NCBI GenBank assembly: GCA_000091205.1
Contig: AP006496.2
Reading direction: 5' to 3' (one strand)
Origin: Cyanidioschyzon merolae
Taxonomy: Eukaryota
Length of the DNA: 64,000 bases
A program made the position numbers and the translations under genes. Positions within the stretch are counted from its first letter, which is position 1. Every line of letters starts with the position of its first letter. Below the pieces are notes generated by a model. That model saw only the letters and a program-made list of their open reading frames with translations. It ran no database searches and was not told where the DNA came from. This document shows positions 2,601 through 61,654 of the stretch, one piece after another.

Positions 2601-2637
2601 GACACACACACACACACACAGAGCGAGAGCGAGAGAA
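2601..2637. repeat. (CA)n followed by (GAGC/GAGA)n microsatellite in the CSE1 5' flank
   Basis: gacacacacacacacacacagagcgagagcgagaga read directly. Confidence 0.9.
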
Positions 2638-6529: not shown

Positions 6530-8268
6530 GAGCGTTGCAGCGCAGCGTCTGCATCAGTAAGAGTCGCTTCCCTGGCAAGCTCGCTCGACGTAAAGCCGGT
6601 GGACGATCTGGAAGCACGAGATATTGCCTGAGGTTGATCGAGGGGTTCAAGTCTCGATGCAGTATGGACGGGTATGTGTGTGTACTTGCTGCTGGCGTCA
6701 CGACGCAGCGAGCCTCACGCCTTTGATTGCCGCTGCATCTCATGGTCGAGCGGCTTACCGTACGCCATCTCGTGCGTCTGTCTCTGTTTCGCTCTCTGAT
6801 TCTCTACCGGATTCGGCACGCGCCCGTGCTCATGACACGTGTATGCCGTCCTGAACACATCGGCGGGCATCGTGCAGCGCGCATTTCTGTATTTACTTCT
6901 GTATTTCGGCATGCTCATTGCATGAGCAGGCGTCCAGCATTTCTGCGTTATAGCGCGCCCTGCTCCATGGGTTACCTATCAAAGAAAACTGAGCAGCTTC
7001 ATCTGCTTCGCACTGAGGCCTTCGGCTCCGTCCCCGCGCTCTAGACGCACAGCGAAGGCCATGGCGCTATCTGACCTGGGAATCACGCGCACAGCGAAGC
7101 CTTTCCCCGCATCTAGCTTGAACAGTTGGAAATGCGTCGCGCTGCCCGAAAGGATACTTTTCGGCACCTGCGCTGTCGAGGTCCCGTTCAAGGACGTGGT
7201 GCGTCGACCTTTCAAGGTATTCTGCGGGCTGTAGGTGCGAGTCTCTGACCCGACGCTCAGGCCGTGTTGCGGGTTTTGTTCCGGGCTTCATTCACGCTGT
7301 CCCTCGGGGAGGGTTCAGCCATAAAAAGCGCAGAGCAATGTGGACAGCTGGCAGCCCTGCGCCCGCAACACGTACGCATTGTTGGTGAACGAGCTGCGTC
7401 ACAGCGCGCGAAACTGAGAGAGTCCTCATCGAGTGCGAAGCAACGCGACGCCATTTGGCGACCTGTATCTCGCTTTACTGAATATTCTCCCTGCTAATGT
7501 GTCTTTGCAGGGAGGCGTCGAGAGTGGTTCCGGCGTCATGCGCCCGATCCGTGAGCTTTTCCTTCCTGTCCCTGCACATCCTCTTCGTCTGAGGGATCCT
7601 CCTGCTCGTGGCGGAGCGGCCTCTTCGCCTTTGCGTCCGCTCGGCTGCGCGCGCCTTGAGCGCTTTCGAGTAAGGGGGCGCATCGTACCCAACGATCAAC
7701 CCAGAAGAATGCGTGATAGAGACGCAACGGAGCGCTTCGACGGAGTATGAGGTGCTGAACGAAGCCGTCTGCTTGGCGATCACTAGGTGGCTCGGCAATG
7801 AAGTCGCCTCTGGGCCTGATGGTGTCGGAATGCTCGCTTATTTGTGCTTTGGGATCCGTCGTTCGCGCCTCGTTGGGTACCCTTGTGCGGGTCCACCATC
7901 GCTCCCGAACAAGTCCCTTTGCGGCGTTATACGGAAATCGAGCACCTCATGTGAGAATCATTGGCGCCGCAGTGCGAAATCGATAAATTGTGTCGTTCAG
8001 CACGAAACAGTCTCCCATACAAGTGCATTCCCTTCTGTATCCGTCTGTGTCTCTTCGGAGCAGCTCGTACCGACGGTACGGCATCATCACAGTCGATGAC
8101 TGCTTCCGTGGAATTCCGTATCGAAGAAATGGAGTGGCATAAATTGACGAGGAGACACACTGATCAACACAGGGTTTGGTACCGTCCGCATTGAGTGCGA
8201 ATCGTTCATCATGCAGAATACGAGTGGGTAGCTGCATCCAGCCGCTGACCCTGGACTGGCTGACTTGT
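6530..8268 (-). mobile_element. Copy 1 of a ~2-kb dispersed repeat family carrying a decayed TnpB/Fanzor-like ORF (sense on the minus strand), truncated at both ends relative to copies 2 and 3
   Basis: Near-identical DNA at 39945-41925 and 59294-61285. Minus-strand ORF pieces contain KLDAGKGFAVRVI (RuvC-I-like, compare [16 protein letters not shown]), AVRLERGDGAEGLSAKQMKLLSF (compare [25 protein letters not shown]), VFRTAYTCHEHG (compare B EFRTSYTNHELG) and ILHRDLNPSINLRQYLVL (compare B FVNHDLNAAINIKRCAVL). The reading frame is broken many times. Confidence 0.75.
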
Positions 8269-9718
8269 ACAAATCATGTCGCCTTTGGTACACCAGCACT
8301 GACACCATAGAAACTTTACGCCAACTCTCTCCAATCGATAGGCTCCATTCTCTTTGTCTTAGGCATGCGACAACCATGGATAAAGACGAAACCTGACCTG
8401 CTGGTACAGTTGGTACAAAATTCGCTGCTCGGATTATATCGATGATGCGCTGTGTGCCGAGGACAAGGTGCGCGGACATTACCGGCTGCCGCTGTGGTCA
8501 CTGCAAGCACCCGCTCATAGCTATGCACCCGCTCGAGTCAAGCATGTGTGGTTCACGCGTCATCGCTTAGGAACGAATATTTCATCGTCGCTGCATTATA
8601 TCGCAGGAGATCGATATCACGATGCAACTGACCGTATAGATCGTAGACGAATTGACTCCAGGATATATTCTTTACTGAATAGTTCAAGGAGGATTGCGTC
8701 CCTTTTTCAGATCAGTCATGCCATAGGACGCAGATGATTGAGGAACACTGTAAGGAACCAGTATATGCGATCTGCGTCAAAAACCGATATTTTTAAAGAC
8801 TGCTTGCCGTTTATGCTAGAAAACTTCCGATTGATCAAACTACGGAAAGCAAAACTGACGATCAGAGCCATCCCGGGCGTCACTGTTTCTCAACAGATCA
8901 ATTGTATGGTCCTGGAAACAGTAGGATAGTCTCAAGAGTCATAATTCACGCACGGCCATCTTCCATGGAGATCGCAATGTCGACGTTCCTCGAACGTCGC
9001 GATCTTCATCAAGCAGAGTGACGTCAGTCTGTTTTTCAGTTGATGCGACATCCTCCGGACGAAAAGGTTGGAGTATACATGAGTATTCGTGGAGCTGGGA
9101 ACCCGTTGTATGTACGATCGAACTCGAAGAGAACGAGGACGTCATCCATTCTTGCTGCAATCGATCCATTTGGCTGTCTCAGATTCGCTTGTGGAGAAGG
9201 CTGAAAGAAAAGCACCTGCTTCGTCTACTACTTGGAAACTTTTCTCCTGACATCTGGTGACGCCATCCTATTGGACAGTGTCGAATTTCGCCATCCGCTT
9301 TCCGTTCGAGCATTTGCCGATTCTATCGGGGAACGAGCTGTCTTTCATTCCTCAGTGTGCTGCGTGGTTCATCCCCATCAGAGGAATGTTTTTGATCATG
9401 AAACGCAGTGATCGCTCCACTGGGTGAATCGCTGAAGCGTTCAGCACACGCTGGCACAACGGAGCACATAAAATCTTCCTTCTGCATGTGCGTCTGTCTC
9501 TGGGAAGGTCAGCACCTAAGGGCATAAACAAGGGCGTTCGTTTGAATACATTAAAAAATCCAGGGAAAGTTATGGACTCGGAAGTCCGAGATGTTTGAGG
9601 CCCGGTGTTGCCAGCTGCCGGATAAAAAACGGAAAGAATCCTTTTCTCGACAAACATCAAGCGAACAAGAGTATGTGACGAAGAAGAAAAAGAAAAGAGG
9701 GGACACAGCACAGCAAAG

Positions 9719-10006: not shown

Positions 10007-10027
10007 GTTTCTCCTTGATTCATTGAG

Positions 10028-17039: not shown

Positions 17040-17230
17040 TTTTCGCTGACAAAACGTTTACTTCGGCCAGCGTTCTCCGATTAAGCGCATTTGTTTCTTA
17101 CTTTTTTTGTGGTTTTTTTCAGTGGGCGGTAAGGTGTCCATCAAACCCCCGACCTCCAAGTTACATTGCCGATACCTCTTCTCGGATATTCCGGTCGTTT
17201 CATACGTCCCATCGGGTGTGCCTAGTGCCT
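17040..17230 (+). repeat. ~150-190-nt conserved non-coding motif, copy 1 of 2 (second copy 28440-28620), containing a polypyrimidine tract followed by CAG, 6 nt, then GGTAAG
   Basis: ggccagcgttctccgattaagcgc...tttttttcagtgggcggtaaggtgtccatcaaacccccgacctccaag here, versus ggccagcgtcctccgattgtgcgc...ttttttttcagcgcgcggttaagcatccatcaaaccccctacttccaaa at 28.5 kb. Confidence 0.5.
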
Positions 17231-21815: not shown

Positions 21816-21827
21816 ATACAGAGCAAA

Positions 21828-22450
21828 GAACAGAGACTAACCATTAACTAGCAACGATATACCAATTTATCTTCCCTGCACGATAAACGATAAAAAGGAA
21901 ACACGATTCCCGTTTTGTCGAAAGTTGAATTTCTCGACGGAAAAACCCGCGAGCCAGACGAGTACCCCAGGCACGTGCTTCGTGCTCGCCTCCCAGTGGC
22001 GGGTGCTGCACTGAAATCTGAGCAATTCGTCTGCAGCACTGTTTATTCTGGTACTAGCGGCAGTTAAACTGCATCTGGGCGTCGATCCGGTCGCGGTGGA
22101 GTCCTAGTATAGAGCTTCACGCTATCGCAGGCAGTGTGTCTGTCTGCGGAGCTTGCTGGCTCCCAGAATGATCCTATACTCCAACTCTGTGTCAGGTGGA
22201 GCATTCCTCGATCCGACGCCCTCAGTAGTACGGCAACGCTGCTCTGTATCTGTGATGCATCGGCATCAGCGGATTAGACGCTAAGGCGGGTGCATCAACG
22301 CATGCACCCGGCGAATGACAGGAAGCACGAGACGAGTAGTACATCTGAAAGGAAGTATACGTAATGGAATCTGGAGTTAGAATGCAGCATGATGGACGCT
22401 TTCGCTGAATCCGATACCCATTTATAGCACAATCTGGGATCCATTGTCAA
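21828..22450 (+). repeat. Conserved ~620-nt non-coding unit, copy 2 of 3; this copy is the left end of Fanzor-like element B
   Basis: See 10028-10650. Copy A (minus strand) is collinear with B only from about 22215 onward and lacks 22340-22450. Confidence 0.6.
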
Positions 22451-22802
22451 TATAAGTGTTTTTCCATCGGAAAAATGAAGCGTGTAGCTCTAACGTACAA
22501 ATTGTAACGATGTTCAAGTCGTAGAAAAATACATTGTTTGTCCTCAATCGTGTTTCAACCTTCACTCTAGTGTATTCAAGTGCTTTTTCGTGCGTAATAG
22601 CTGTCCCATCCAAAGTGGTTTCGGTTTTTATATTGAAAAAGGAAAGTTACGGAAGTGGAAGTGTAGGATCCTGGGCGTCAATGTCGCCGGCAGCCCGAAA
22701 AAACGAAGAACAGTGCCAAGTGCAAAGGAACAGGATAAGAAGAAGAAGTAAAAGTGGAAGGCCCTACGTCAAAGGCTACACAAAAGACGACGGTACGACG
22801 AG

Positions 22803-24838
22803 ATGGCGGTGAAAGCCTGTCTTCTTCAACATACCAAGGATCCGTACAGGGAAAACGTTCGAGAGGCAATATGGAACCGTGTCGAGCCGAACTCCAGCGG
22901 TGTTCGTGATGCTTCTCAAGGAATGTTGCATTTCCTAAGAAAATGGTATCATGACGTTACGGACATCAAAACAGTCGATATTCTGGGTGAATTTTTCAAC
23001 AAAACCTTTATTCATCACTTTATGCTTGGCACCGGGGAAACGTCTAGGTGAAATGAGCGAGTTCATGCCCTCCACAAAATTTACGCCGAGTTCCGCTTCG
23101 ACGGTACTCGATACAGGGGGGATTGGGATATTTACATCTACGGGGCGATGAAGTACCTCACCAGTCTAAAGAACCATTTAACAATGAACCTCAAAAGCTT
23201 CATGATACGCTCCATCTTTGCACTCTACCCCGGTCTCACTCGTCAGGGGATATGGGCGATTGTCAATGGCAACACGAACGATCGCAAGCATGAAGATGAG
23301 ATTGAATTCATCGACGAGAAGAAATCACTCAGGAGCATGAATGAGGATTCCGTCATCCGAGCGGCTATACAAGAGCATCGTACGGTACTGGGGTTGGCGA
23401 ACCGAGCAGCAAAGATATCAGAGTTGAAAAAAGATAACGAAAGATACTATCGCCTCGTCCTGCGTTACTTTGTGTTTCTGGGCCGTGAGCTCGAACGCAA
23501 GGCAGAGATGAAGCTGAGTGAGGAAAAAATGAAGAGCGGGGGAAACGAAAGGCTGCGCTTCTGGGTAAGCGCTTCAACGTCGTTCCGTTGTCCAACATCA
23601 AGTCACGTTTTGTGACTATCGATTCCAGAATCCTTTACGGCATCATGAAAGACTTCAGCCCCGAGTTTAATGTCAGCAGGAAGGAGAGTACCGGTGAAAA
23701 CCGGGAGACGTACTGGAAGAATATGTTTGATTTCACACGTCTGAAAGTGGGCAAACAAAAGGTATTCACAGGGGTGATCGAAACCGATGGAGTAGCCATG
23801 TGTATTCACTATCGGCGCTTGAAGGCGGATCGTCCAGTTCCGTCTTCGATAGTGTCCGTGACGAAGCATGAAGATGAGAAGGAGGCGGATTGTGCCACAC
23901 AGAAAGTGCAGGATAACAACTTTGTCGTTGGCGCGGACCCTGGGATTACGAATATCGTAACCATCGCTGCTCCCAAGCGTGCGGAAGATGGTAACGACGG
24001 TAACACACGTCAGAAAGGCATGCGTCTGTTGAGGTTCTCGAGAGCGAGATACCACCGAGGATCCGGCGTAATGAATGCAAGGAAGAAAATCATTACATGG
24101 AATTCAGGAATGAAAGAGCACCTGGAAGCTTTGAGCGAGGTGACGAGCCGAGGAGCGGACTTTAACGCTTTTCGGGAGATTATGGAAGTTCGCGTTGCTC
24201 ATTGGGATTCGCTGTGGGAGGAGTATACAAAGCCTCGACGGGCTCGTCTGCTTATGAACCTGTATTGTGGGAAGCGGCTTGCATTCGCCAACTTTTTCAG
24301 TCAGTTGAGCGCCTTGAAGGAGGATGAAAGTCAGAGGCTCGTAGTAGCATACCGAGCAGGGCGCTGGGCGTCGAAAAAAGGAACTACGCCAACTCCAACG
24401 ACAAGAACGTACAAGGAGTGCGCACGGCGCTTCGCTACGATACCTGTAGATGAGTTCCGAACATCCTATACAAACCATGAACTGGGGTGCACGCCTCAGA
24501 CGGTCGAGATGGAGAAGTGTCAGCGAAGCCCTGAGGATATACAAAAGTACGGACCGCTGACGGAAGAGCATATGGGAAGGAGGGCGAAAGTTCGAGGGCT
24601 ACTTGCACTAATGAGTACAACCAATGATAGTAAGAAACGTATGGAGTTTGTGAATCATGACTTAAATGCCGCGATCAATATCAAGAGATGTGCGGTGCTG
24701 GAGAAGAGACCTCCAAACTGGACAAGAATGAACTTTATTGGACAACCTCTCAAAGTCAAACTATATGAGAAGAAGTTGGAAGCAGTAGTAGGCGGCCGGT
24801 CCAAGAAAACTGCGAGGCGTCTGTACGTAAGTTGGTGA
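22803..24838 (+). pseudogene. TnpB/Fanzor-like RuvC nuclease ORF of element B. It is nearly intact, with one in-frame TGA (23049-23051) and one 14-nt tandem duplication (23562-23575) that shifts the frame.
   Basis: N-terminus MAVKACLLQHTKDPYRENVREAIWNRVEP..., RuvC-I-like [31 protein letters not shown], and RuvC-III-like KRMEFVNHDLNAAINIKRCAVLEKRPP. Where A has TSRRNERVH, B has TSR*NERVH. Deleting tgggtaagcgcttc restores the frame (ERLRF|NVVPL, matching A EKRFNVVPL). Confidence 0.75.
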
Positions 24839-24905
24839 TGTCTAGTCTGGGGCGCGGCGATCGCCACTACTGTACCACTGGCGACAGCGTTTTTCTTTTG
24901 AAAGG
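24839..24905 (+). other. Right-end tail of element B: conserved hairpin-like segment followed by a T-run. It is a candidate terminal omega-RNA scaffold and/or terminator.
   Basis: gtaagttggtgatgtctagtctggggcgcggcgatcgccactactgtaccactggcgacagcgtttttcttttgaaagg. The matching tail of copy A runs from tctagggcgggtttctcgccactactgtacacggccgccggcgacg to ttcgacttttaagg. The two sequences diverge immediately after this point. Confidence 0.45.
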
Positions 24906-24944
24906 CGTTGGTTTCCAGGGGCGCGCGCTACAGCAACGCCTCTG

Positions 24945-28439: not shown

Positions 28440-28620
28440 TTTTTCCCATTGCCAAGACGCGTACCAAGGCCAGCGTCCTCCGATTGTGCGCTTTTGCTTT
28501 TTTCTTTTTCTTTTCATTTTTTTTCAGCGCGCGGTTAAGCATCCATCAAACCCCCTACTTCCAAACTCCGTAACCCATACTACTCCTCGGATACACTGAT
28601 CGCTTCATAGGCTGTATCGT
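28440..28620 (+). repeat. Copy 2 of the ~150-190-nt conserved motif (see 17040-17230). It lies 40-200 nt upstream of the SppA start codon on the opposite strand.
   Basis: Direct similarity to 17040-17230. Confidence 0.5.
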
Positions 28621-29089
28621 TCGCTGAGCGCATGCCGCAAGCGTCCCTTGTGGAGCTTGTACCGTTGGCACGAATGCATCTCAATGACAGAACGGCTTTG
28701 CCGTACTAATGAGGACGCCGCCTCGGTGCTTGGTTTATCCAACATGGAATCGGGATTCACTATCATTACGAGAGCCTGCAAGCTGCGCAGACAGACCTAC
28801 TGCCTGCAACAGCGCGAAGAGATTTACCAGGATAATCCTGCGAACACGGGCGACTCCTAGACGCAGCGCACCAGCTCCTAGTCCCGAACTGAACTGCGTT
28901 GCGGGCGAGCTGCTCAAGTCTCGCCATTGCACCCACCACTTGGTGGAGCATGAAGTTTCAGCGCGGCGGAGTCGTCTGGCTCGCGGGACGCCCCGACTAA
29001 AAGGTGAACTTTCGACCATGCGAAACAATTTTGCCAGCTTCAACACGTACCGTCGAGGCAAATATTCGTATATCGTTGCTAGGTAGCGT

Positions 29090-30040
29090 TCGTTTCCGTG
29101 ATTATTTTCTACAGCGCAGTCGATACGCACACCATCATATTTGGGAGATGACATTGACGGCAGCCTGCGCCACAATGAGATGCGTCTTTTGAAGTTCTCG
29201 AGAGCTGCATATTGCCGACAGTCGGAGATAATGAAGCCCAAGAAATACTGCACCCTGCAACGCTGAACAGAAGGAGTACCTGGACGCGATGAGCAAAGTC
29301 GCGTCGCGCGGAGCGGACTTTCGAGCTTTTCTCGAATTCACGGAAACTCAAGCTGCTCATGCCGAGGAGCTGTGGAAAGAGAGTATCCAAAGCCCCGGTG
29401 GGCTCGTCAGCGCATGAACCTTCGCAGAGGGAAGAAGCGGGTACGCGGCATGTTCATGAATCAGTTGAGCGCCCTCAAGCAGGACAAGAGTCAAAGGCTC
29501 GTAATTGGATACGCAGCAGGGCGCCGGGTGTCCAAAAAGCTAGCGTACCAGCTCCATCGACAAGAGCGCGCAAGGAGTGCACACACCGTTTCATCGCAAT
29601 ACCGACAGATGAGTTCTGAACGTCCTACGTGCACCAGGGGCTGTGGTATACGCTTCTGGAGGTCGAGATGGAAAAGTGCCAGCGGAGGGCTGAGCATATA
29701 CAAAAGTGCGGAGACCTGACGGTGCAGGAAATGGCACGAAGGGCGCGAGTTCGAGTACTCCTCGCTCTAGTGGGTTCAAGCAGCGGCAACAAACACATGC
29801 AGATCGTGAATCGAGACTTTAACGCCGCTTTCAATATCAGGTGATGTGCGGTACTGGAGAAGAGATTCGAGGGGTTGACACGATCCAATTTTGTGCCACA
29901 AACTCTCCGAGTCCAACTGTAAAACGAGAACTTGAAACCAATAACAGGCGGCCGGTCGATAGAGACGGAGCGGCGTCAGCACGTCGGTACATAGGTACCC
30001 GCGCGATCATCGTACCGTATTCAAACGCGATCCCCAGAAG
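29090..30040 (+). pseudogene. 3' fragment of a TnpB/Fanzor-like element of the A/B subfamily, with multiple frameshifts and stops
   Basis: MRCVF*SSRE aligns with [63 protein letters not shown] and KHMQIVNRDFNAAFNIR align with B ALSEVTSRGADFNAFREI, SQLSALKEDESQRLVVAYRAGR, RFATIPVDEF and KRMEFVNHDLNAAINIK. The tail ggcggccggtc...cgcgcgatcatcgtaccg is similar to B's right end. Confidence 0.6.
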
Positions 30041-39944: not shown

Positions 39945-41925
39945 TGTGGCGTTCCAGCCTCGCTCGACAGCTGACCAGTACCATACCAGTGTCTTGGCGC
40001 AGGCGAGGATCCGAATCTTCCCCCTGTTTCCTAACGTCTTTATTGCATCCGAACTCCACAGCGTTGCAGCGCAGCGTCTGCATCAGTAAGAGTCGATTCC
40101 CTGGCAAGCTCGCTCGACGTAAAGCCGGTGGACGATCTGGAAGCACGAGATATTGCCTGAGGTTGATCGAGGGGTTCAAGTCTCGATGCAGTATGGACGG
40201 GTATGTGTGTGTACTTGCTGCTGGCGTCACGACGCAGCGAGCCTCACGCCTTTGATTGCCGCTGCATCTCATGGTCGAGCGGCTTACCGTACGCCATCTC
40301 GTGCGTCTGTCTCTGTTTCGCTCTCTGATTCTCTACCGGATTCGACACGCGCCCGTGCTCATGACACGTGTATGTCGTCCTGAACACATCGGCGGGCATC
40401 GTGCAGCGCGCATTTCTGTATTTACTTCTGTATTTCGGCATGCTCATTGCATGAGCAGGCGTCCAGCATTTCTGCGTTATAGCGCGCCCTGCTCCATGGG
40501 TTACCTATCAAAGAAAACTGAGCAGCTTCATCTGCTTCGCATTGAGGCCTTCGGCTCCGTCCCCGCGCTCTAGACGCACAGCGAAGGCCATGGCGCTATC
40601 TGACCTGGGAATCACGCGCACAGCGAAGCCTTTCCCCGCATCTAGCTTGAACAGTTGGAAATGCGTCGCGCTGCCCGAAAGGATACTTTTCGGCACCTGC
40701 GCTGTCGAGGTCCCGATCAAGGACGTGGTGCGTCGACCTTTCAAGGTATTCTGCGGACTGTGGGTGCGAGTCTCTGACCCGAAGATCAGGCCGTGTTGCG
40801 GGTTTTGTACCGGGCTTCATTCACGCTGTCCCTCGGGGCGGGTTCAGCCGTAAAAAGCGCAGAGCAATGTGGACAGCTGGCAGCCCTGCGCCCGCAACAC
40901 GTACGCATTGTTGGTGAACGAGCTGCGTCACAGCGCGCGAAACTGAGAGAGTCCTCATCGAGTGCGAAGCAACGCGACGCCAATTGGCGACCTGTATCTC
41001 GCTTTACTGAATATTCTCCCTGCTGACGTGTCTTAGCAGGGAGGCGTCGAGAGTGGTTCCGGCGTCATGCGCCCGATCCGTGAGCTTTTCCTTCCTGTCC
41101 CTGTACATCCTCTTCGTCTGAGGGATCCTCCTGCTCGTGGCGGAGCGGCCTCTTCGCCTTTGCGTCCGCTCGGCTGCGCGCGCCTTGAGCGCTTTCGAGT
41201 AAGGGGGCGCATCGTACCCAACGATCAACCCAGAAGAATGCGTGATAGAGACGCAACGGAGCGCTTCGACGGAGTATGAGGTGCTGAACGAAGCCGTCTG
41301 CTGGGCGATCACTAGGTGGCTCTGCAATGAAGTTGCCTCTGGGCCTGATGGTGTCGGAATGCTCGCTTATCTGTGCTTTGGGATCCGTCGTTCGCGCCTC
41401 GTTGGGTACCCTTGTGCGGGTCCACCATCGCTCCCGAACAAGTCCCTTTGTGGCGTAATCCGGAAACCGAGCACCTCATGTGAGAATCATTGGCGCCGCA
41501 GTGCGAAATCGATAAATTGTGTCGTTCAGCACGAAACAGTCTCCCATACAAGTGCATTCCCTTCTGTATCCGTCTGTGTCTCTTTGGTGCCGCTCGTACC
41601 GACGGTACGGCATCATCACAGTCGATGACTGCTTCCGTGGAATTCCGTATCGAAGAAATGGAGTGGCGTAAATTGACGAGGAGACACACTGATCAACACA
41701 GGGTTTGGTACCGTCCGCATTGAGTGCGAATCGTTCATCATGCAGAATACGAGTGGGTAGCTTCATCCAGCCGCTGACCCTGGACTGACTGACTTGTCCA
41801 AGTAAGGCTGTTTTCTCGTGAACTACCGGTGACAACACCTTGTGTTTCCTGTTCCTGTCTCCATTCTGCAGGATACCCTCCGTTTTCTTGAATGCGTGTG
41901 AGAGATGTAGAGAAAAAGAACGTGC
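39945..41925 (-). mobile_element. Copy 2 of the ~2-kb Fanzor-relic repeat family (full-length relative to copy 1)
   Basis: The predicted ORF fragments are identical or near-identical to copy 3, and about 97% identical to copy 1. Confidence 0.8.
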
Positions 41926-42279
41926 TGATATAGCGACTGCATACGCGATCTGCGTAGGCAGCGATGCCCTGATGCCCCTGTCCGTAAAGATCCTAAATAT
42001 CGAAGATCTAAACACACCCCTGAGGCTCTGCAGCACAGGCCAGCGGGAGAACGTGTACTCCGGTGCGCGCGGAGACTGCCAGCCAGCTGGACGCAGCGTT
42101 GTTCGCGTCCCTTAGCTGAGCACGACTAGCGGGGCTCAAAGGTCCCCTTTTCTGACGCAAGCGCTTGGGGTTGTTGCTCTGGCACCAGTGCGCATAAGGC
42201 CCTGTGCGAAGCAAGCAACACTGTTGAAGGGCGAGCAGCGAACGACGACGCATACGCGACGGTTTCGCTCAAGATACTC

Positions 42280-47340: not shown

Positions 47341-49489
47341 CGCTGTTCGATCGACCACGGGATGATTCCTCCTTGGATTTGGGTAAGGGTTTTAGGAATC
47401 ATGGAGCGCGTGCAGGGCGCCTGTCGCAATCGCAGCTAGCTGGTATGCATTCCGTGCTTTCTGGCGAGCTTGCGCTTGCACCTGCACGGTGCAGTCCATT
47501 AGGAGATGCCACTGCTGCCGAGCGGCCGCCTTTCCGTGCGAAAGCAATGAAATAGACGTGATTGTGGACCGCATGGAGAGGGTGAATGTTCTTTCCCTTG
47601 ACGTTGTCTCCCGGGAAGCAGCATGTCTGTGTGGATGTCCGGATCGCGTCACCGCAGCTGCCACTGCAGCCGTTCGTTTTTAAAACCGAATGCTGGACTG
47701 TCTGTTCTTTTTCTGCCTTTCGATTCTATTCCGAACTTGGTTTCGATCTGCAGCCTCGTCATTCCAAGTGCAGCAGTATGGGCTTGTGGATCCATACGTG
47801 GTTTTAGGATTCTCGGTCGTTGTTTTGGAGTGGCTCCTTGGCGGCTTTGGCACCGGAGTTGGTTCCGTCACCGTTTTCAAGATGATTCGTGACACCCTTC
47901 GACAAGGCTTCGTTGAATACATGATACCATCATCCAATTCATACGCACAAGCCTCCGCGCGTCTCTTGTATTCAATTCTAGCGTGCTCACATCACGAATG
48001 CGTCGTATGTTCAAGGTTTCTGGTCCACCACTGCGATTTCTGAGGTCAGCCATTTGTGCCGCTGCATGGGGAACGATAAGAACTCGATATCGTGCCTTGG
48101 CGAGTCGTTCCTAAGCAAATACCAGAAGCTCACGGATGTTCTCGTACCAGATGATAATCGATTCGGGTGAAAAGACAAATCTCCACCGCTTGAGGCCATC
48201 GACGCTGCGGCATTGAACAGCCGAAGTATACTAGCGCTCTCGGAATACGCTCCCATATGCTTCTGGCATTCCTGTTTGCATCGGAAAGGGTCTTGGACTT
48301 GGATTTCAGTTCGCCCAGCAATCGCTGCTAGGGCAATTCACGTCACCGCTTTGTACGAAGAGAGCGTTGACGGATCGGAATTTCTCGACTAGTTCTTCCT
48401 CTTTGATGCTCCACTCGGTACTTGTTTCATCATGGACAACATCGCGTTCCATGAATCCTTTACTGGATGAAACAGTGCGCGTTTGCGCGTGTCGCGAACA
48501 AAGTACTCACCAGCGGGCTTGCTCTGCTGAGGCCCGTGATCGTGAGATACGCCACGGGGCACGGTAACGAAGGAGGGTACCGCGTTGAGCCCTCTGCGCC
48601 CGCCAGGAGCATGTACTGGACAATGAAGCGAGCGTTTACGCGCCACTAGCCGGCCTCGGATGTAGAGGAGGAGAAGGAGGAGGAATTTTGGTGCCTGCAT
48701 GGGAACAAACGCACCACAGCAATGCGTAACCGCTGCATAATTCGCACCGAGGCTCTATCCGAGGAAGATGAGATTGGCAAGCGAAGCGTGGATCGCAACA
48801 TCTGCCTTTCCATGAAATGTGTCGACAGCAGCCTGAAGTAGCGAAATCAGGATCTTAAAGTTGCCATCAACATGCTTCTGCAGCTGGCAACAGTGCTGGA
48901 CCAAAAGGTTTGACCAGCATACCTGACGCCAGAAATAAGAGAGAGGCGGTGGAAGCAGCCTCAGAAAATCCCGCCACGATTCGTGTTGAAGATAGTGGCA
49001 AGCGTGACCAACCTATATGGTCTACTTCAGGAGTAGAAGACCCGTTCCGTTTTCTTCTGGAATGGGTGTCTAAAGATTCTGAGTGTATTCTGCGAGAGCA
49101 TGGTCTGCTATGAGCGCGATGCTGCAGCGCGACATGCGCATTCTTCCAAAATCAGTGTCGGGCAGATCACGGGCGCATCACTGGTATTGCTATCAGGGGC
49201 TGGAGCATGTGGCCACTAGCGGGCACTCTTTTCGCTCACGCTTCAATCATTTGGCCCGGACTCTCTCACATGGTACCTCCCTGCTGGCAGCACGACACCG
49301 GGATGGCGTATGAGATGAAATGCAATGTGTTGCTGGCGAAGCGCACGACCTGCAGAGCCTCGCAGCTGCGCTTGAGCCTTATATCATCTAGAACGCAGTC
49401 TTTTGCGCGCAGATTTTCCCCTGAAAGGCAAAGTACTGCCAGATTGACGCTGCATTCATGTGGCGCCCTCGTCAGCTCAGCCTTGCGAG

Positions 49490-52798: not shown

Positions 52799-54857
52799 GT
52801 TGCAGGCGAAAGGAGAGAAGCGAACCGATCCGCCCCGGGAATTTGAATCCGCGCAGCGCGATCGCTCGCCAGCGGCGGTATGATGGCGGCCTCATTCGCG
52901 TGCATGATAGGATGTACCACAACGGCCAGTATACCCGGGAGGGAGTATGGGTTATGGAGCTTGGACCTAGGTGTAACGATGGGTGCTTTACCGTACACCG
53001 ATATGAAACGTGCAATCGGTGAGCGCTGGTCTGCGCGTAAACGTTTCGTCAAAGAAGATAATCGGGTGGTTTCGTTCGCCTGTGTCTATGGTCATCGATG
53101 CTGTTGACACCGCAATATACGGAGCGCCGGAGGAAAGCATCGCAGCATATCAAAACTCTTGGATGGGCTAACTGGATCCCGGCATTTCCACTGAGATTCC
53201 CAGAATACGACGCTCGGACAAGGCGGAAGAACGCGGTGCGTCGCGCGTTCGTGCTCGTTTCAGGAGCGCATGATGCATAAACTCCATTTCGAAAAAACGT
53301 ACGCTGCGACCCGCATAGGTCCGTAGGTTCTGTGCGGAATTCAAGCTTTCATTCACGTTCTATCACAATACAGTTGAAACTGCGCCCAGCCGCGGTCTCG
53401 AAGCAGCCATCAATGCTGTTTGCGCGCACCATCTCGGGGCAAGCCTTGCTGGATGTGCGTTTTCAGCATGTTTCGAGGCGTCTCGCGCGACAGCGGCCAT
53501 GCTTTCGTGTGCAGGAGCGCTTCCATCTATCGCGCGGGTTGCCGGTCTTAGAAGGACGCGCATTGCGTTGCGGAGGCATGCCATCGGCTTGTCCAGACAT
53601 GCCTCGGGAACGAGACGCTCGTCGTGCACAGTATCGCTGCCGCCGTGCAGAGGTGACCCTGTTCATTAGCGGTGTCACCATGGCTCTGGGGCCGAATACC
53701 GGATGCAGCACTTTCCTCCATCTATCCATCCGAACGTCCGTCCGACCATTGATCTGCTGCCTTGTGTGCCAGTAGATGTAGACGACGTACGTAGACCAGC
53801 GAGCCGCTTGCTGCAGATCTATATCCTGGTGTCTGGTTCTATGGATGCGGAACGTCGCCAAGCTGTCCGGATCGGTCACGGAATCCGCCAAAGCCTACGT
53901 CGTGCGCCCCGAACATGCTCGTCTCTGTTCAACGGTACAGAAGCGGGATGTCCCGGGTCGTTACCTAGAGACATGATGCGTGTTCGGAGCGCATCATTCC
54001 CTGATCCGAGGTCCCTGTCAGACGCGTCTGCGATTCACATTCACCGGAAGAAGCCATCATCCATGTCACAAGGCTCACGATTGTACTCCATTATGGAATC
54101 GAAGCTCGTCGCTTCCGAGACTCGCAAACGAGGGATTGTACTGCGCGTCAAGCTTCCAGCTTACGGCAAATGTCATTATTCATTGGAGACCCAGCGAGGC
54201 AGGCCCACAAACCTATGTTACCTGGACGCCAACTCGCGACGCTGTCGTCTCGATGCACGCCTTGTAACGTCCTGGGATTTCAGGCGCACACACGAGAGAT
54301 ACCCGACTGCCCGCGTGCATCATCCGATACGGAGCGCGCACCAGCTGAGCGTTTTGATGAATTATGTCCAAAGGCTGTAGTTTATTTCCCACGAATACAG
54401 TGAGACAAGAGAGCGTAACAAAAGAGGAATCATGCGTTGTGCTCTCGATCTCCCTATCATTCAGAGCCGAGGAACGCTACGAGGTGTCCTCATGTCCGTG
54501 ATCATTTCGGGGCGGGAAAGCGAGGATGAATCACGACCGGATCCTCCGAATGCGCGAAAACCGTCAATTGCCTGTTGATGAAACTTTCTCGATGATGCGT
54601 CAACTGTGGGGTCGCGGGAAACGGGGTATACCTCGAGGCGACACTTCGTGGGGCACGGCGAATCTGTTTTGGACCTTTAGGGCATCGGCACGGTCGCATG
54701 GTGGATCAATTTGTTTATTCTTATCTGGGGAGGTGTTCTGGAGTCGCTCGTACGCGACAGCGTCTCTAGTGGAACAGAAATCTTGTTCTGGCTACGGGCA
54801 GCTTACACTGCTGTCAGAAGCATCTGATTTCATGCATGGATCCCTACGATGCGAAAA

Positions 54858-55460
54858 AGAACAGAGATCAACGAGTGATTAGCAACTCGAGAACAGCTTC
54901 TTCCCGGCTTCACGGTGAGCGTTGAAAGGGAAAAAAGTTTTCCGTAATTTCGAAAGTGTATCGTGTTGGTGGAATTTGGCGCGAACCGGATGAGTCCGTC
55001 AGGCCAGAGCTCGCTGTGCCTCTAAGGTGCCGGGCCAGTAGCGAGTTCTGAGCAGCTCGTCCGCAACGCAGTTTATTCTGCGACTAGGGGCAGTTAAGCT
55101 GCGTCTGGGCGTCGCCCATGTTGCAATTATCTCCTAGCATATCGCTTCGCTCTGTCGCAGGCGGCAGGTCTGCTTACCCATTTTTCAGGCTCCCAGAATG
55201 CTTACATAATCCGATTCCGTACCTGGTGAAGCGGCCCGCAATCCGATGCCCTCAGCAGTATGGCAAAGCGTTCTTGTCCCCGTGCTGCATCCGCATCAGC
55301 GGTTTAGGCGCAATCGCGGATGCAGCAAGACAGGCACTCGCAACACAATGGAACATTCAAAACGGCAAGTGCATCCAGGCAGAGGCAAGGGCCATGGAAC
55401 TTGGACGTAGAGTGCATCATGGTGGACGCTTTCCCGAATACCAGTTTCCAATCCGCAGGC
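54858..55460 (+). repeat. Conserved ~600-nt non-coding unit, copy 3 of 3 (solo; no adjacent nuclease ORF)
   Basis: See 10028-10650. It ends about 250 nt upstream of the eIF4E ATG on the same strand. Confidence 0.6.
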
Positions 55461-55708
55461 GAGGATCCCCGATCAACAGAAACGTTTTATCAAACGAAGA
55501 AAAAGATGCGTTGCACGTCGATACCCGAAAAGGGGCATCGCACGCCTGATGATGCAGCGTCGGCGCCGCCGCTGCCGCCGCTGCCGCCACTGCCCCAAAC
55601 GTACACCCATCCCAGCAAGGTGTCTAGTGACACCTGCTTCGTTTACGAAACAGCAATAGCACCGTTTGCGCTGGCACCGCACTCTAGAGACCGTACGTTG
55701 CTCCGGCT

Positions 55709-58300: not shown

Positions 58301-58816
58301 TCAGTGATGGCGGCCGTTTCGTGCGAGATGCTCCGCGGGACTCGATCGCAGGCTCGCACCTCGCTCCGCCTCGTACTCCCCGTAAAACGTGACCACATTC
58401 TTCTCAGTCTCCCAGAGACGAATTCTGTACAGCAATAATCCAAGGTGTGGCTCAAGCCAACCCCAAATGACCGCAGCGAGGTTCTCAGTCGTTGCCGGTA
58501 GAGCGTGCGCATAACCGCCGTTTTCTGAAGCAAACTCATTTACATCCTCGTCAATCGACGCATGATCGAGCTTCTCGAGCACATGTTTCTCGATTACTTC
58601 CTTCAATAGACGCATGTCGAGCACCATACCGGTCTGAGCATCGACTGGACCTCGAACCGTAACCTCCAGAACATAGTTGTGTCCGTGGCGTCGTGCGCAC
58701 GGCCCAAACAGCCTCTCGTTTTCTTCCGGACTAAGCTTGCCCGCTCTCAGCGCATGACATGCGGAAAACGTCACAGCGCGTGTTAACTCCACAACCGGCC
58801 TCTGGATATGAACCAT
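58301..58816 (-). CDS. 6-pyruvoyl-tetrahydropterin synthase (PTPS/QueD family). I chose the internal Met (MVHIQRP); the ORF is open to 59098.
   Basis: RAVTFSACHALR...CARRHGHNYVLEVTVRGPVDAQTGMVLDMRLLKEVIEKHVLEKLDHASIDEDVNEF...TTENLAAVIWGWL...YRIRLWETEKNVVTFYGE matches PTPS (CNNPNGHGHNY, TGMVMNLxDLK, LDHKNLDxDV, TTENVAVYIW, YETDNNIVVYKGE). Confidence 0.8.
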   Translation of the reverse strand: MVHIQRPVVELTRAVTFSACHALRAGKLSPEENERLFGPCARRHGHNYVLEVTVRGPVDAQTGMVLDMRLLKEVIEKHVLEKLDHASIDEDVNEFASENGGYAHALPATTENLAAVIWGWLEPHLGLLLYRIRLWETEKNVVTFYGEYEAERGASLRSSPAEHLARNGRHH

Positions 58817-59293
58817 TGGTCTCGAGCGACTCTGGAGCGAGAGCGCCCACCTGCAACGGATACAAAGCTCGCGAACGGTTTCGTGACGCTGCCCGATCAA
58901 TCTCCCGAAAATCGCGCCAAAAGAGGAGCCTGCGCAGTAGCGCCAGGCACCGTTTCTGGAGGACTGGCATTGAGGCATCGAACTGGTATCATCCGGTAGC
59001 AGTATTTTCGGGACCAGGGCCAAGACGATTGTGGCTCTCAAAACGTGTCTATGTGACGCTGATCCCGGTCCAGTGTTCACTGCAGGGCTAGCACACACAA
59101 CGAACCAGCGTCTTGCTGGTTGTAGCGTGTGTTGCAGGCGCTCGCGAAGGTGCTGGATGCGCAGCCTCCGCCGCCGCGAGGCTACTCTATGGTACCAGCA
59201 CGGAGCTGCGCCTGTCCGTACTCAGGGATATTGAACCTTGGAACGTCAATATACTTTCTTGATGGCATGGGAAGATCGTATGTGGTGTCGGCC

Positions 59294-61285
59294 TGTGGCG
59301 TTCCAGCCTCGCTCGACAGCTGACCAGTACCATACCAGTGTCTTGGCGCAGGCGAGGATCCGAATCTTCCCCCTGTTTCCTAATGTCTTTATTGCATCCG
59401 AACTCCACAGCGTTGCAGCGCAGCGTCTGCATCAGTAAGAGTCGATTCCCTGGCAAGCTCGCTCGACGTAAAGCCGGTGGACGATCTGGAAGCACGAGAT
59501 ATTGCCTGAGGTTGATCGAGGGGTTCAAGTCTCGATGCAGTATGGACGGGTATGTGTGTGTACTTGCTGCTGGCGTCACGACGAAGCGAGCCTCACGCCT
59601 TTGATTGCCGCTGCATCTCATGGTCGAGCGGCTTACCGTACGCCATCTCGTGCGTCTGCCTCAGTTTCGCTCTCTGATTCTCTACCGGATTCGACACGCG
59701 CCCGTGCTCATGACACGTGTATGTCGTCCTGAACACATCGGCGGGCATCGTGCAGCGCGCATTTCTGTATTTACTTCTGTATTTCGGCATGCTCATTGCA
59801 TGAGCAGGCGTCCAGCATTTCTGCGTTATAGCGCGCCCTGCTCCATGGGTTACCTATCAAAGAAAACTGAGCAGCTTCATCTGCTTCGCATTGAGGCCTT
59901 CGGCTCCGTCCCCGCGCTCTAGACGCACAGCGAAGGCCATGGCGCTATCTGACCTGGGAATCACGCGCACAGCGAAGCCTTTCCCCGCATCTAGCTTGAA
60001 CAGTTGGAAATGCGTCGCGCTGCCCGAAAGGATACTTTTCGGCACCTGCGCTGTCGAGGTCCCGATCAAGGACGTGGTGCGTCGACCTTTCAAGGTATTC
60101 TGCGGACTGTGGGTGCGAGTCTCTGACCCGAAGATCAGGCCGTGTTGCGGGTTTTGTACCGGGCTTCATTCACGCTGTCCCTCGGGGCGGGTTCAGCCGT
60201 AAAAAGCGCAGAGCAATGTGGACAGCTGGCAGCCCTGCGCCCGCAACACGTACGCATTGTTGGTGAACGAGCTGCGTCACAGCGCGCGAAACTGAGAGAG
60301 TCCTCATCGAGTGCGAAGCAACGCGACGCCAATTGGCGACCTGTATCTCGCTTTACTGAATATTCTCCCTGCTGACGTGTCTTAGCAGGGAGGCGTCGAG
60401 AGTGGTTCCGGCGTCATGCGCCCGATCCGTGAGCTTTTCCTTCCTGTCCCTGTACATCCTCTTCGTCTGAGGGATCCTCCTGCTCGTGGCGGAGCGGCCT
60501 CTTCGCCTTTGCGTCCGCTCGGCTGCGCGCGCCTTGAGCGCTTTCGAGTAAGGGGGCGCATCGTACCCAACGATCAACCCAGAAGAATGCGTGATAGAGA
60601 CGCAACGGAGCGCTTCGACGGAGTATGAGGTGCTGAACGAAGCCGTCTGCTGGGCGATCACTAGGTGGCTCTGCAATGAAGTTGCCTCTGGGCCTGATGG
60701 TGTCGGAATGCTCGCTTATCTGTGCTTTGGGATCCGTCGTTCGCGCCTCGTTGGGTACCCTTGTGCGGGTCCACCATCGCTCCCGAACAAGTCCCTTTGT
60801 GGCGTAATCCGGAAACCGAGCACCTCATGTGAGAATCATTGGCGCCGCAGTGCGAAATCGATAAATTGTGTCGTTCAGCACGAAACAGTCTCCCATACAA
60901 GTGCATTCCCTTCTGTATCCGTCTGTGTCTCTTTGGTGCCGCTCGTACAGACGGTACGGCATCATCACAGTCGATGACTGCTTCCGTGGAATTCCGTATC
61001 GAAGAAATGGAGTGGCGTAAATTGACGAGGAGACACACTGATCAACACAGGGTTTGGTACCGTCCGCATTGAGTGCGAATCGTTCATCATGCAGAATACG
61101 AGTGGGTAGCTTCATCCAGCCGCTGACCCTGGACTGACTGACTTGTCCAAGTAAGGCTGTTTTCTCGTGAACTACCGGTGACAACACCTTGTGTTTCCTG
61201 TTCCTGTCTCCATTCTGCAGGATACCTTCCGTTTTCTTGAATGCGTGTGAGAGATAAAAACAAAACCGGACGTGCTGGTAAAGTT
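59294..61285 (-). mobile_element. Copy 3 of the ~2-kb Fanzor-relic repeat family
   Basis: Near-identical to 39945-41925 over the whole length, with different flanks on both sides. Confidence 0.8.
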
Positions 61286-61654
61286 GGTACAGAAGGTACT
61301 GCTCTAAATGGAAAAGATGTCGGCCCGGAGCTGTGCACTCGTGTCGCGAAGCAGCAGAGCGCGAACTGGTGAGTCATGGGTCAGCGTTGCCACGCATCCA
61401 GCAGCTTACACACATAAAGCCACCTTCATTTCTGTGGGTAATATCGAAGGAGACCCCCCAGTGCCTTGACACTACCGTCATAGCAACACAGAACAAGTCT
61501 ATCTACCAAATCGAATCTAAACCCTAAAGGTAGAGTCTTTTGCCATGACCATCAATACCAGCTTCCACGTGCTTTTTCCGCAACTGACTCCATCCTGACT
61601 CAGTTACCTCAGGGTCTGAGTAGGTTAGTCTCCCCGGTCCCTCCGATACTGTCG

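What the first reader, a model, noticed from the sequence alone, without database searches (positions are those of the whole stretch)
39945..41925. Host-GC ~2-kb repeat family (three copies in 64 kb) carrying a heavily decayed Fanzor-like ORF, yet near-identical between two copies
Copies at 39945-41925 and 59294-61285 are essentially identical over about 2 kb and have unrelated flanks on both sides, so they are independent insertions rather than a segmental duplication. The copy at 6530-8268 is about 97% identical and truncated at both ends. On the minus strand all three retain recognisable but broken pieces of a TnpB-like protein (KLDAGKGFAVRVI, GDGAEGLSAKQMKLLSF, VFRTAYTCHEHG, ILHRDLNPSINLRQYLVL), with frameshifts shared by all copies. 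A coding-dead element that is still very similar among copies implies recent amplification of a non-autonomous derivative, presumably mobilised in trans. The third RuvC motif has drifted from NRDxNAAINI to HRDLNPSINL identically in all copies, so this family is a distinct, older lineage from A/B.
Basis: seen in the sequence. Interest (0 to 1): 0.65.

Follow-up and report, generated by a model that had tools for sequence, protein, structure and literature searches.

The report
Dead Fanzor relic kept uniform by conversion

Summary
The repeat is real. c2 (39945-41933) and c3 (59294-61283) are 99.3% identical over 1,990 bp. c1 (6531-8272) is about 98% identical over 1,742 bp. The flanks are unrelated. 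The window is C. merolae 10D chromosome 14.

On the minus strand every copy carries a relic of a Fanzor1 gene. It matches aa 5-180 and aa 567-720 of the published C. merolae Fanzor1 protein CMe-1 at 26-35% identity. The middle of the protein is largely missing, and stops and frameshifts are shared by all copies. There is no DNA similarity to the known CMe-1A element, so this is a second, dead lineage.

The "recent amplification" reading is not supported. All three copies sit at the same sites, with the same boundaries, in environmental C. merolae strains that differ by about 1% at neutral sites. No fourth site was found. c2 and c3 share 10D-specific substitutions, while their last 25 bp differ at 8 positions. 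That pattern indicates non-allelic gene conversion among old copies. The c3 site is empty in the sister genus Cyanidiococcus. I found no inverted terminal repeats, target-site duplications, structured RNA or intact relative. This is a new member of a known kind, of low interest.

The parts
39945..41933 (-). Copy c2 of the repeat (family C). Identity to c3 is near-perfect up to 41906 and then decays over 41907-41933.
59294..61283 (-). Copy c3. Homology to c1 continues, diverged, to about 61304.
6531..8272 (-). Copy c1: a 1,742-bp core about 98% identical to c2 and c3.
8273..8430 (-). Diverged right-hand continuation of c1. About 105 nt are barely alignable to c2/c3 (global z 2.8-3.1). They are followed by a 42-52-nt motif (8379-8430), GATAAAGACGAAACCTGACCTGCTGGTACAGTTGGTACA..., that is about 86% identical to c3 61253-61304. 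c2 has a weaker version at 41905-41933.
40039..40504 (-). C-terminal Fanzor1 relic, equivalent to CMe-1 aa 567-720, about 35% identity, with 1 stop and 2 frameshifts.
40352..40384 (-). FRTTYTCHEHG, the [TS][TS] motif. It aligns to CMe-1 FRTSYTHHELG. The preceding PVDEF of CMe-1 reads PADVF here.
40159..40188 (-). HRDLNPSINL, the 'RD' (third RuvC) motif, identical in c1, c2 and c3. CMe-1 has NRDFNAAINI.
40514..40627 (-). Possible remnant of the first RuvC region (CMe-1 aa 426-464). GDGAEGLNAKQMKLLSF resembles EDGTDGNLRQKDMRLLRF, but GADPGNT is replaced by VRVIPRS. It is followed by two in-frame stops at 40505-40510.
   Evidence: score 49 vs 38.7+-5.7, not significant on its own
40652..41199 (-). 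N-terminal Fanzor1 relic, equivalent to CMe-1 aa 5-180, 26% identity, with 2 stops and 2 frameshifts. CMe-1 aa ~184-425 and ~465-566 have no counterpart.
41200..41933 (-). About 730 nt of 5' non-coding leader of the relic. It matches nothing else.
39945..40038 (-). 3' tail of c2/c3. It ends about where a CMe-1-like ORF plus a short 3' UTR would end. It has no stable RNA fold and no Rfam match.

Best explanation
The repeat is the relic of a second Fanzor1 (eukaryotic TnpB-like) element lineage in Cyanidioschyzon merolae, distinct from the known CMe-1A family. It cannot encode a nuclease. About half of the protein is deleted and the rest is broken by stops and frameshifts.

Three copies lie in direct orientation within 55 kb of chromosome 14. 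They entered the C. merolae lineage after its split from Cyanidiococcus; this is shown only for the c3 site. They were already in place before the sampled C. merolae strains diverged.

Their near-identity does not date their origin. The interiors, above all those of c2 and c3, have been homogenised by non-allelic gene conversion since the strains split, while the edges keep the older divergence.

Shown here: the homology to Fanzor1, the decay of the ORF, the fixation at orthologous sites, and the substitutions shared between paralogs. Inferred: gene conversion as the mechanism, and an ancient origin of the copies. How the copies were first dispersed (transposition of an already dead element, or ectopic DNA duplication) is unresolved.
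For: 1. Organism. Ten window ORFs were looked up; seven are in the collection, and six of those are exact C. merolae 10D proteins on an 852,727-bp contig (CMN035C, CMN042C and others).

2. Fanzor homology. The CMe-1 protein from Bao & Jurka 2013 (PMC3627910, supplementary file 3) aligns to the minus strand of each copy. tblastn covers aa 567-702 at E 1e-12 to 5e-13. The frameshift-aware alignment scores 184 vs 53+-6.5 and 105 vs 48.6+-5. The N-terminal part without the basic leader scores 76 vs 37.8+-5.4, and a reversed-protein control scores 35.

3. Distinct family. The CMe-1A consensus maps to 19286-22469, 22479-24907, 28537-29988 and other places, but nowhere in the repeat. GC content is 0.56 for the repeat against 0.48-0.49 for CMe-1A copies.

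4. Old and fixed. Metagenome contigs 99.3-99.6% identical to the window carry c1, c2 and c3 at the same sites with the same limits.

5. Only three sites found. A 28-mer at the core edge found just c1', c2' and c3' in the JGI metagenome collection. A look-up of an internal 100-aa ORF found 7 contigs, all of them c1/c2/c3 or repeat-only.

6. Concerted evolution. Intergenic divergence between strains is 0.8-1.2%. The interiors of 10D c2 and c3 differ at only 6 of 1,962 sites (Poisson P 0.0003-0.05 for an expectation of 20-12). At 5 sites only 10D c2 and c3 share a base. At 2 sites all three 10D copies differ from every metagenome sequence. At 3-4 sites only the metagenome c2' and c3' share a base.

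7. Old edges. There are 8 differences in 25 nt at 41907-41931, conserved copy by copy across strains. The c1-specific states at 41451-41798 are shared by 10D and the junction contigs L017 and L028.

8. The c3 site is empty in Cyanidiococcus: about 0.4 kb lie between the PTPS and Rad51-like genes, against 4.5 kb in the window.

9. From the literature: C. merolae recombines homologous DNA efficiently (gene targeting, PMC3764038, listed).
Against: The environmental sequences come from short-read metagenome assemblies, and these can mix the copies. One contig (L034) joins the left flank of c1 to the right flank of c2. Repeat-only collapsed contigs also exist. The phase of variants inside the metagenome copies is therefore unreliable, and the c2'=c3' identity in contig Ga0080006_1125336 could be assembly collapse.

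The argument then rests mainly on three points: the finished 10D sequence, the sites at which no metagenome sequence shows the 10D base, and the junction-proximal bases.

The Poisson test is only marginal (P 0.05) if neutral divergence is taken as 0.6%.

The copy number in the complete 10D genome could not be counted here.

The residual homology at the edges is short: 27 nt for c2/c3 and 52 nt for c1/c3. It could be a shared target or an unrelated small repeat rather than old element sequence.
Confidence: 0.7

Rival explanations
1. One reading: a non-autonomous, coding-dead derivative that was amplified recently by transposition, mobilised in trans by an active relative.
For: Identity among copies is 98-99.3% and the flanks are unrelated. 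All lesions are shared. The c3 site is empty in Cyanidiococcus, so at least that copy arrived as an insertion. CMe-1A copies that could supply functions lie in the same window.
Against: All three copies are fixed in every strain sampled, with about 1% neutral divergence between strains. No fourth site was found. c1 has different ends from c2 and c3, and there are no inverted terminal repeats or target-site duplications. Substitutions specific to 10D are shared by c2 and c3 although both copies predate the strain split. Fanzor is not itself a transposase, and the relic shares no terminal DNA with CMe-1A. No intact relative turned up among 1.84 billion representative proteins.
Confidence: 0.12
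2. The copies were made by non-transpositional local DNA duplication, for example templated repair of a double-strand break using a nearby copy. They are simply moderately young, and no later gene conversion took place.
For: All three copies lie in the same orientation within 55 kb. The ends are ragged and differ between copies, with no target-site duplications. The copy number is low.
Against: This does not explain derived bases shared by paralogs in only one strain lineage. It does not explain why the c2/c3 interiors are about three times less diverged than orthologous neutral DNA. It also does not explain the abrupt switch from about 100% to 68% identity at 41906/41907, which is conserved across strains.
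Confidence: 0.12
3. The repeat is a domesticated non-coding module, such as a regulatory element or a source of RNA, kept similar by selection.
For: Identity is high despite the age of the copies. Nozaki et al. 2007 report that the related 3.2-kb repeats are transcribed (PMC1955436).
Against: Orthologous divergence of the element (1.06-1.6%) is as high as, or higher than, that of neighbouring intergenic DNA, so there is no sign of constraint. There is no Rfam or tRNA hit. The 3' tail folds less stably than its shuffles (z +2.06). The copies sit in no consistent position relative to neighbouring genes.
Confidence: 0.04
4. The repeat is an assembly artefact that duplicated or collapsed the region in the 10D sequence.
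Against: Independent assemblies from at least 10 samples span each junction between the repeat and its unique flank.
Confidence: 0.01

Closest known systems
CMe-1A / CMe-1, the Fanzor1 family of C. merolae (Bao & Jurka 2013, PMC3627910). This is the '253 copies of a 3.2-kb interspersed element with a truncated ORF related to WSV486' of Nozaki et al. 2007 (PMC1955436).
   Same: Same host. It has a Fanzor1-type protein with colinear N-terminal and C-terminal homology, an [TS][TS] motif and an RD motif, no inverted terminal repeats, a long 5' non-coding leader, and an old age.
   Different: There is no DNA similarity and only 26-38% protein identity. GC content is host-like (0.56 vs 0.48-0.49). 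The relic is about 2 kb rather than 3.2 kb, with aa ~184-425 and ~465-566 missing. Three copies were found rather than 150-250. The copies are 98-99% alike rather than about 80%.
TE-N2_CMe and internally deleted CMe-1A copies (non-autonomous derivatives of a Fanzor element; Bao & Jurka 2013)
   Same: A shortened derivative of a Fanzor-bearing element that cannot encode the protein.
   Different: TE-N2_CMe is the 635-bp 5' part of CMe-1A and has about 70 copies. Copies in this window lie at 10030-10646 and 54856-55492. The present repeat shares no sequence with it and shows no sign of amplification.
Concerted evolution of dispersed repeats by non-allelic gene conversion (described for Alu, LTR elements and ISX; e.g. 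PMC8230782, PMC4384637, listed)
   Same: Paralogs share lineage-specific substitutions. The interior is homogenised while the edges stay diverged. The copies are linked on one chromosome.
   Different: Here only three copies of a relic are involved, in a very compact haploid algal genome. The evidence is comparative; no conversion event was observed directly.
Short 'HEHG-type' Fanzor fragments in hot-spring metagenomes (P0082-P0087; loci L029-L031)
   Same: They share ...TIPIDALRT..TNHEHG... and ...YG.LTE.QMARQSK... with the relic at 35-47% identity. L029 is 68.5% identical at the DNA level to 40050-40391.
   Different: They lie at other loci, are much more diverged, and are also fragmentary. 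None is an intact gene.

Membership tests
Fanzor1 / TnpB-like protein (motif of Bao & Jurka 2013: D-X(125,275)-[TS]-[TS]-X-X-[C4 zinc finger]-X(5,50)-RD) | Significant colinear homology to a curated Fanzor1 protein | tested here: met
   Aligned to CMe-1: aa 567-720 scores 184 vs 53+-6.5, and aa 5-180 scores 105 vs 48.6+-5. tblastn E 1e-12 to 5e-13.
Fanzor1 / TnpB-like protein (motif of Bao & Jurka 2013: D-X(125,275)-[TS]-[TS]-X-X-[C4 zinc finger]-X(5,50)-RD) | First conserved Asp (the GxDxG region, first RuvC motif) | tested here: not met
   The only candidate segment (40514-40627) reads FAVRVIPRS where CMe-1 has FVVGADPGN. The alignment is not significant on its own (49 vs 38.7+-5.7).
Fanzor1 / TnpB-like protein (motif of Bao & Jurka 2013: D-X(125,275)-[TS]-[TS]-X-X-[C4 zinc finger]-X(5,50)-RD) | [TS]-[TS] dipeptide | tested here: met
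   FRTTYT in c2 and c3, aligned to CMe-1 FRTSYT. c1 reads FRTAYT, so there the second residue is lost.
Fanzor1 / TnpB-like protein (motif of Bao & Jurka 2013: D-X(125,275)-[TS]-[TS]-X-X-[C4 zinc finger]-X(5,50)-RD) | C4 zinc finger (OrfB_Zn_ribbon, PF07282) | tested here: not met
   There is one Cys (CHEHG) and no second Cys pair before the RD motif. Pfam gave no hit even at E <= 10. The window's own CMe-1A-type ORFs also gave no Pfam hit.
Fanzor1 / TnpB-like protein (motif of Bao & Jurka 2013: D-X(125,275)-[TS]-[TS]-X-X-[C4 zinc finger]-X(5,50)-RD) | C-terminal RD motif (third RuvC motif) | tested here: met
   HRDLNPSINL at 40159-40188, identical in c1, c2 and c3.
Fanzor1 / TnpB-like protein (motif of Bao & Jurka 2013: D-X(125,275)-[TS]-[TS]-X-X-[C4 zinc finger]-X(5,50)-RD) | Open reading frame able to make the protein | tested here: not met
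   Within the aligned parts there are at least 3 stops plus the double stop at 40505-40510, and 3-6 frameshifts. About 340 residues are missing. The longest ORF in the relic is 125-186 aa. It is a relic of the family, not a functional member.
CMe-1A transposable-element family | DNA similarity to the 3,169-bp CMe-1A consensus | tested here: not met
   blastn with word size 7 and E <= 1e-3 maps the consensus to seven other places in the window and to none of the three copies.
Recently active non-autonomous transposon | Insertion polymorphism between closely related strains | tested here: not met
   c1, c2 and c3 are present with identical limits in all environmental contigs that reach the sites.
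Recently active non-autonomous transposon | Common termini in all copies, with inverted terminal repeats or target-site duplications | tested here: not met
   c1 differs from c2 and c3 at both ends. No terminal inverted repeats or flanking direct repeats were found.
Recently active non-autonomous transposon | Further copies elsewhere in the genome | tested here: inconclusive
   No fourth site appeared in the metagenome scan or the ORF look-up. The complete 10D genome was not available to the tools.
Repeats evolving in concert by non-allelic gene conversion | Lineage-specific substitutions shared by paralogs that predate the lineage split | tested here: met
   Seven sites are specific to 10D (5 shared by c2 and c3, 2 by all three copies). 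Three to four are specific to the metagenome c2' and c3'. Caveat: the assemblies can be chimeric.
Repeats evolving in concert by non-allelic gene conversion | Paralog divergence below orthologous neutral divergence | tested here: met
   6 differences in 1,962 sites (0.3%), against 0.8-1.2% in intergenic DNA and 1.06-1.31% for the orthologous copies.
Repeats evolving in concert by non-allelic gene conversion | Sharp step to older divergence at the tract edges, stable across strains | tested here: met
   Eight differences in 41907-41931 are locus-specific in all contigs. For c1 vs c3, identity drops from 98% to barely alignable and then to about 86% in the terminal motif.

The most novel reading that the evidence does not exclude
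The homogenised relic is not junk. On this reading it is a retained non-coding module, for example a source of a guide-like or regulatory RNA left over from an extinct Fanzor lineage, and its three copies are kept alike because the sequence matters. The evidence does not strictly exclude this, because expression could not be examined. Nothing found here points to it either: divergence between strains is at the neutral level, and no structured RNA was detected.
Probability: 0.04. Interest if true: 0.6.

Novelty: new member of a known kind. Interest (0 to 1): 0.2.

Why it matters
The practical lesson concerns scans of this kind. Near-identity between dispersed repeat copies was read as recent transposition. 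Comparison with sister strains instead shows old, fixed copies that exchange sequence. Identity histograms therefore overestimate transposon activity in a genome that recombines as readily as that of C. merolae.

The finding also adds a second, extinct Fanzor1 lineage to a genome for which one family (CMe-1A) was listed. It gives a small natural example of ectopic gene conversion in a compact red-algal genome. It opens no new mechanism and offers no usable nuclease.

Tried and rejected
- Pfam scan of a 217-aa stitched C-terminal translation of the relic and of the window's CMe-1A-type ORFs: no hit.
- Word-indexed search of 5.8 billion proteins with a 511-aa stitched pseudo-protein: no hit at E <= 0.01. 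The query was probably too degenerate for the 5-residue word filter.
The 86-aa single-frame piece was used instead and returned only fragments.
- Exact look-ups of the SAPLb protein and of the c2 67-aa ORF: not on record.
- Rfam and tRNA scans: nothing.
- RNA fold of the 3' tail, as a test for a guide-RNA-like scaffold: less stable than its shuffles.
- Search for terminal inverted repeats or flanking direct repeats: only short chance-level pairs. No tandem repeats in the element.
- Residual homology left of 39945 (c2 vs c3): a colinear 26-nt match with z 3.2, too weak to use.
- Homology of c1's left flank to c2/c3 or to the L029 relic: none.
- Introns as the cause of the frame breaks: rejected. 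The breaks include in-frame stops and 1-nt shifts inside well-aligned stretches, two large parts of the protein are absent, and only 0.5% of C. merolae genes have introns (PMC1955436).
- GC-biased conversion as the cause of the host-like GC: the 10D-specific changes shared by c2 and c3 are mostly GC to AT, so this is not supported.
Full report
**Where the window comes from.** Of ten window ORFs looked up, seven are in the collection, and six of those are exact matches to annotated proteins of Cyanidioschyzon merolae strain 10D (CMN035C, CMN042C, eIF-4E, SAPLb and others) on an 852,727-bp contig, which is chromosome 14. Pfam hits on the long ORFs are ordinary eukaryotic genes: gamma-tubulin complex protein, formin, Dcc1 and aspartate-semialdehyde dehydrogenase.

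**The observation.**
- Self-blastn confirms the repeat. c2 39945-41933 vs c3 59294-61283 is 99.25% over 1,990 columns. c2 40060-41801 vs c1 6531-8272 is 98.16% without gaps.
- A three-way alignment and shuffle-controlled local alignments show that the flanks are unrelated.
- There is one exception. About 100-106 nt to the right of the 1,742-bp core, c1 (8379-8430) and c3 (61253-61304) share a 42-52-nt motif at about 86% identity (z 14.6 local, 9.3 global). It occurs nowhere else in the window. c2 has a weaker version at 41905-41933.
- c1 is therefore not truncated at that end. Identity there falls from 98% to barely alignable and then rises to about 86% in the motif.
- The repeat has host-like GC content (0.56). 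The CMe-1A copies have 0.48-0.49.

**What the sequence is.**
- Bao & Jurka 2013 (PMC3627910) describe one Fanzor1 family in C. merolae, CMe-1A. It has about 150 copies roughly 80% identical to a 3,169-bp consensus, no inverted terminal repeats, and a 734-aa protein, CMe-1.
- Nozaki et al. 2007 (PMC1955436) describe the same thing as 253 copies of a 3.2-kb element.
- I took the protein and the consensus from the supplementary files of Bao & Jurka.
- The consensus maps to 19286-22469 (-), 22479-24907 (+), 28537-29988 (+), 10030-10646 (-), 54856-55492 (-) and smaller pieces.
- At the protein level, CMe-1 aa 567-702 hits the minus strand of each copy (tblastn E 1e-12 to 5e-13).
- A frameshift-tolerant protein-to-DNA alignment gives aa 567-720 = 40504-40039 (score 184 vs 53+-6.5 for shuffled protein; 35% identity). 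It also gives aa 5-180 = 41199-40652 (105 vs 48.6+-5). Without the basic leader the N-terminal part scores 76 vs 37.8+-5.4, and a reversed-protein control scores 35.
- Between these two blocks only about 49 codons remain. Their similarity to the first RuvC region is suggestive (GDGAEGLNAKQMKLLSF vs EDGTDGNLRQKDMRLLRF) but not significant, and GADPG reads VRVIP.
- The relic therefore lacks roughly aa 184-425 and 465-566. It carries stops and frameshifts in every copy. It keeps the [TS][TS] and RD motifs but has no zinc finger.
- An exhaustive HMMER search of 1.84 billion representative proteins with the 86-aa single-frame piece found only the element's own 67-aa ORF and six short decayed fragments at 35-47% identity. 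It found no intact relative.
- Two of those fragments lie at other loci of C. merolae-like contigs. One of them is 68.5% identical at the DNA level to 40050-40391. The lineage is therefore old and has other, more diverged relics.

**Age of the insertions.**
- Look-ups of neighbouring genes returned contigs from hot-spring metagenomes (JGI, ENA, Logan) that are 99.3-99.6% identical to the window.
- All contigs that reach the sites carry c1, c2 and c3 at the same positions and with the same limits. Many contigs break inside the repeat, as expected for a repeat in a short-read assembly.
- A 28-mer at the right edge of the core found only these three sites in the JGI metagenome collection.
- An internal 100-aa ORF is carried by seven contigs. 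All of them are c1/c2/c3 or repeat-only contigs.
- In Cyanidiococcus yangmingshanensis the gene order SAPLb-ASADH-formin-eIF4E-PTPS-Rad51-like-Rad1 is conserved. Only about 0.4 kb separates the PTPS and Rad51-like homology there, against 4.5 kb in the window, and nothing matches the repeat.
- The c3 insertion is thus bracketed between the split of the two genera and the divergence of the sampled C. merolae strains.

**Why the copies look young.**
- Mismatch density between 10D and the 50-kb contig Ga0080006_1125336 is 8-12 per kb in intergenic DNA, and 10-18 per kb in the repeat copies.
- Duplicates older than the strain split should therefore differ by at least about 1%. The interiors of 10D c2 and c3 (39945-41906) differ at 6 sites (0.3%). 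The Poisson P is 0.0003 for an expectation of 20, 0.004 for 16 and 0.05 for 12.
- I tabulated 63 variable sites over 22 sequences:
  - At five sites only 10D c2 and c3 share a base (40542, 40757, 40783, 40785, 41104).
  - At two sites all three 10D copies differ from every environmental sequence (40948, 41139).
  - At three to four sites only the environmental c2' and c3' share a base (41207, 41231, 41324, 40817).
- By contrast, the eight differences at 41907-41931 follow the locus in every contig. The c1-specific bases at 41451-41798 are shared by 10D and the junction contigs L017 and L028.
- Substitutions shared by paralogs within a lineage, together with edges that keep an older locus-specific divergence, are the signature of non-allelic gene conversion.
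- The three copies are direct repeats 33.5 and 19.3 kb apart, and C. merolae is known for efficient homologous recombination (PMC3764038).

**Caveat.**
- Metagenome assemblies mix the copies. Contig k141_433619 (L034) runs from the left flank of c1 through the repeat into the right flank of c2, skipping 33.5 kb that contain presumably essential genes. Repeat-only collapsed contigs also exist.
- I therefore rely on sites where no environmental sequence shows the 10D base, on junction-proximal bases, and on the finished 10D sequence.
- The complete 10D genome was not available, so the copy number in 10D itself remains to be counted.

**Other checks.** There are no inverted terminal repeats, flanking direct repeats or tandem repeats. 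There is no Rfam or tRNA match. The 3' tail, where a Fanzor guide RNA would lie, folds less stably than its shuffles (z +2.06). Orthologous divergence of the repeat is not below that of neighbouring intergenic DNA, so there is no sign of selective constraint.

**Verdict.**
- The identification as a decayed Fanzor-like relic of a lineage distinct from A/B is supported and made more precise: an internally deleted Fanzor1 relic, 26-38% identical to CMe-1.
- The inference of recent amplification in trans is not supported. The copies are old and fixed, apparently only three in number, and most likely homogenised by gene conversion.
- How they were first dispersed is unresolved.
- This is a new member of a known kind and of low general interest. 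Its main value is as a caution for dating transposons by copy identity.

Noticed in passing
window 19286-24907: Two CMe-1A Fanzor1 elements lie 5'-end to 5'-end: a full-length copy at 19286-22469 (-) and a 5'-truncated copy at 22479-24907 (+). Together they form a 5.6-kb imperfect palindrome (arms about 80% complementary) of low GC content (0.48-0.49). The + copy keeps a 416-aa ORF with GADPG, RTSYT and HDLNAAINI motifs.
   Followed up: partly
window 10030-10646 (-), 54856-55492 (-), 28537-29988 (+), 17127-17337, 9530-9876: There are solo 5' parts of CMe-1A (TE-N2_CMe-like, about 620 bp), an internally deleted CMe-1A copy (consensus 65-666 joined to 2243-3092), and small fragments. Fanzor-derived DNA is dense in this 64-kb stretch.
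   Followed up: partly
L034 (ENA ERZ27247235, contig k141_433619), locus coordinates 1-10303: This metagenome contig joins the left flank of c1 (Cse1, Dcc1) through the repeat to the right flank of c2 (SAPLb), skipping 33.5 kb of the window. It is most likely an assembly chimera. If real, it would be a deletion by unequal recombination between c1 and c2.
   Followed up: partly
L039-L041 (Cyanidiococcus yangmingshanensis GCA_013995675.1 and GCA_026122185.1, plus a Logan contig SRR7903764_5125 with the same gene order) vs window 58371-63991: Gene order is conserved between the two genera. The PTPS to Rad51-like interval is about 0.4 kb in Cyanidiococcus and 4.5 kb in C. merolae. The extra DNA holds c3 and a further ~2.1 kb (61284-63383) that includes a 213-aa ORF at 61655-62296 (-).
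   Followed up: partly
L029 6138-6481, L030 1171-1514, L031 1819-3013: Other decayed Fanzor1 relics of the same 'HEHG-type' lineage lie at unrelated loci in hot-spring metagenome and Logan contigs. Their DNA is 66-69% identical to 40050-40391. The L031 relic covers CMe-1 aa 274-699.
   Followed up: partly
window 48396-48646 and 61876-62127: A small inverted repeat pair of about 110-240 nt, 67-73% identical, belongs to an unidentified family. One member lies just right of c3.
   Followed up: no
window 8603-9943 and L026 8280-9632 (about 5-6 kb beyond the right end of the window): The stretch to the right of c1 contains a CMe-1 C-terminal remnant (9752-9988, +) and an antisense 223-aa ORF (9352-10023, -) that metagenome annotation calls a gene. 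It has a 70%-identical inverted copy just outside the window.
   Followed up: no
window 41476-42036 (-): A 186-aa ORF starts in unique DNA 244 bp upstream of SAPLb and runs into the right end of c2. It is called as a gene in several metagenome contigs but has no Pfam hit and is probably spurious.
   Followed up: no
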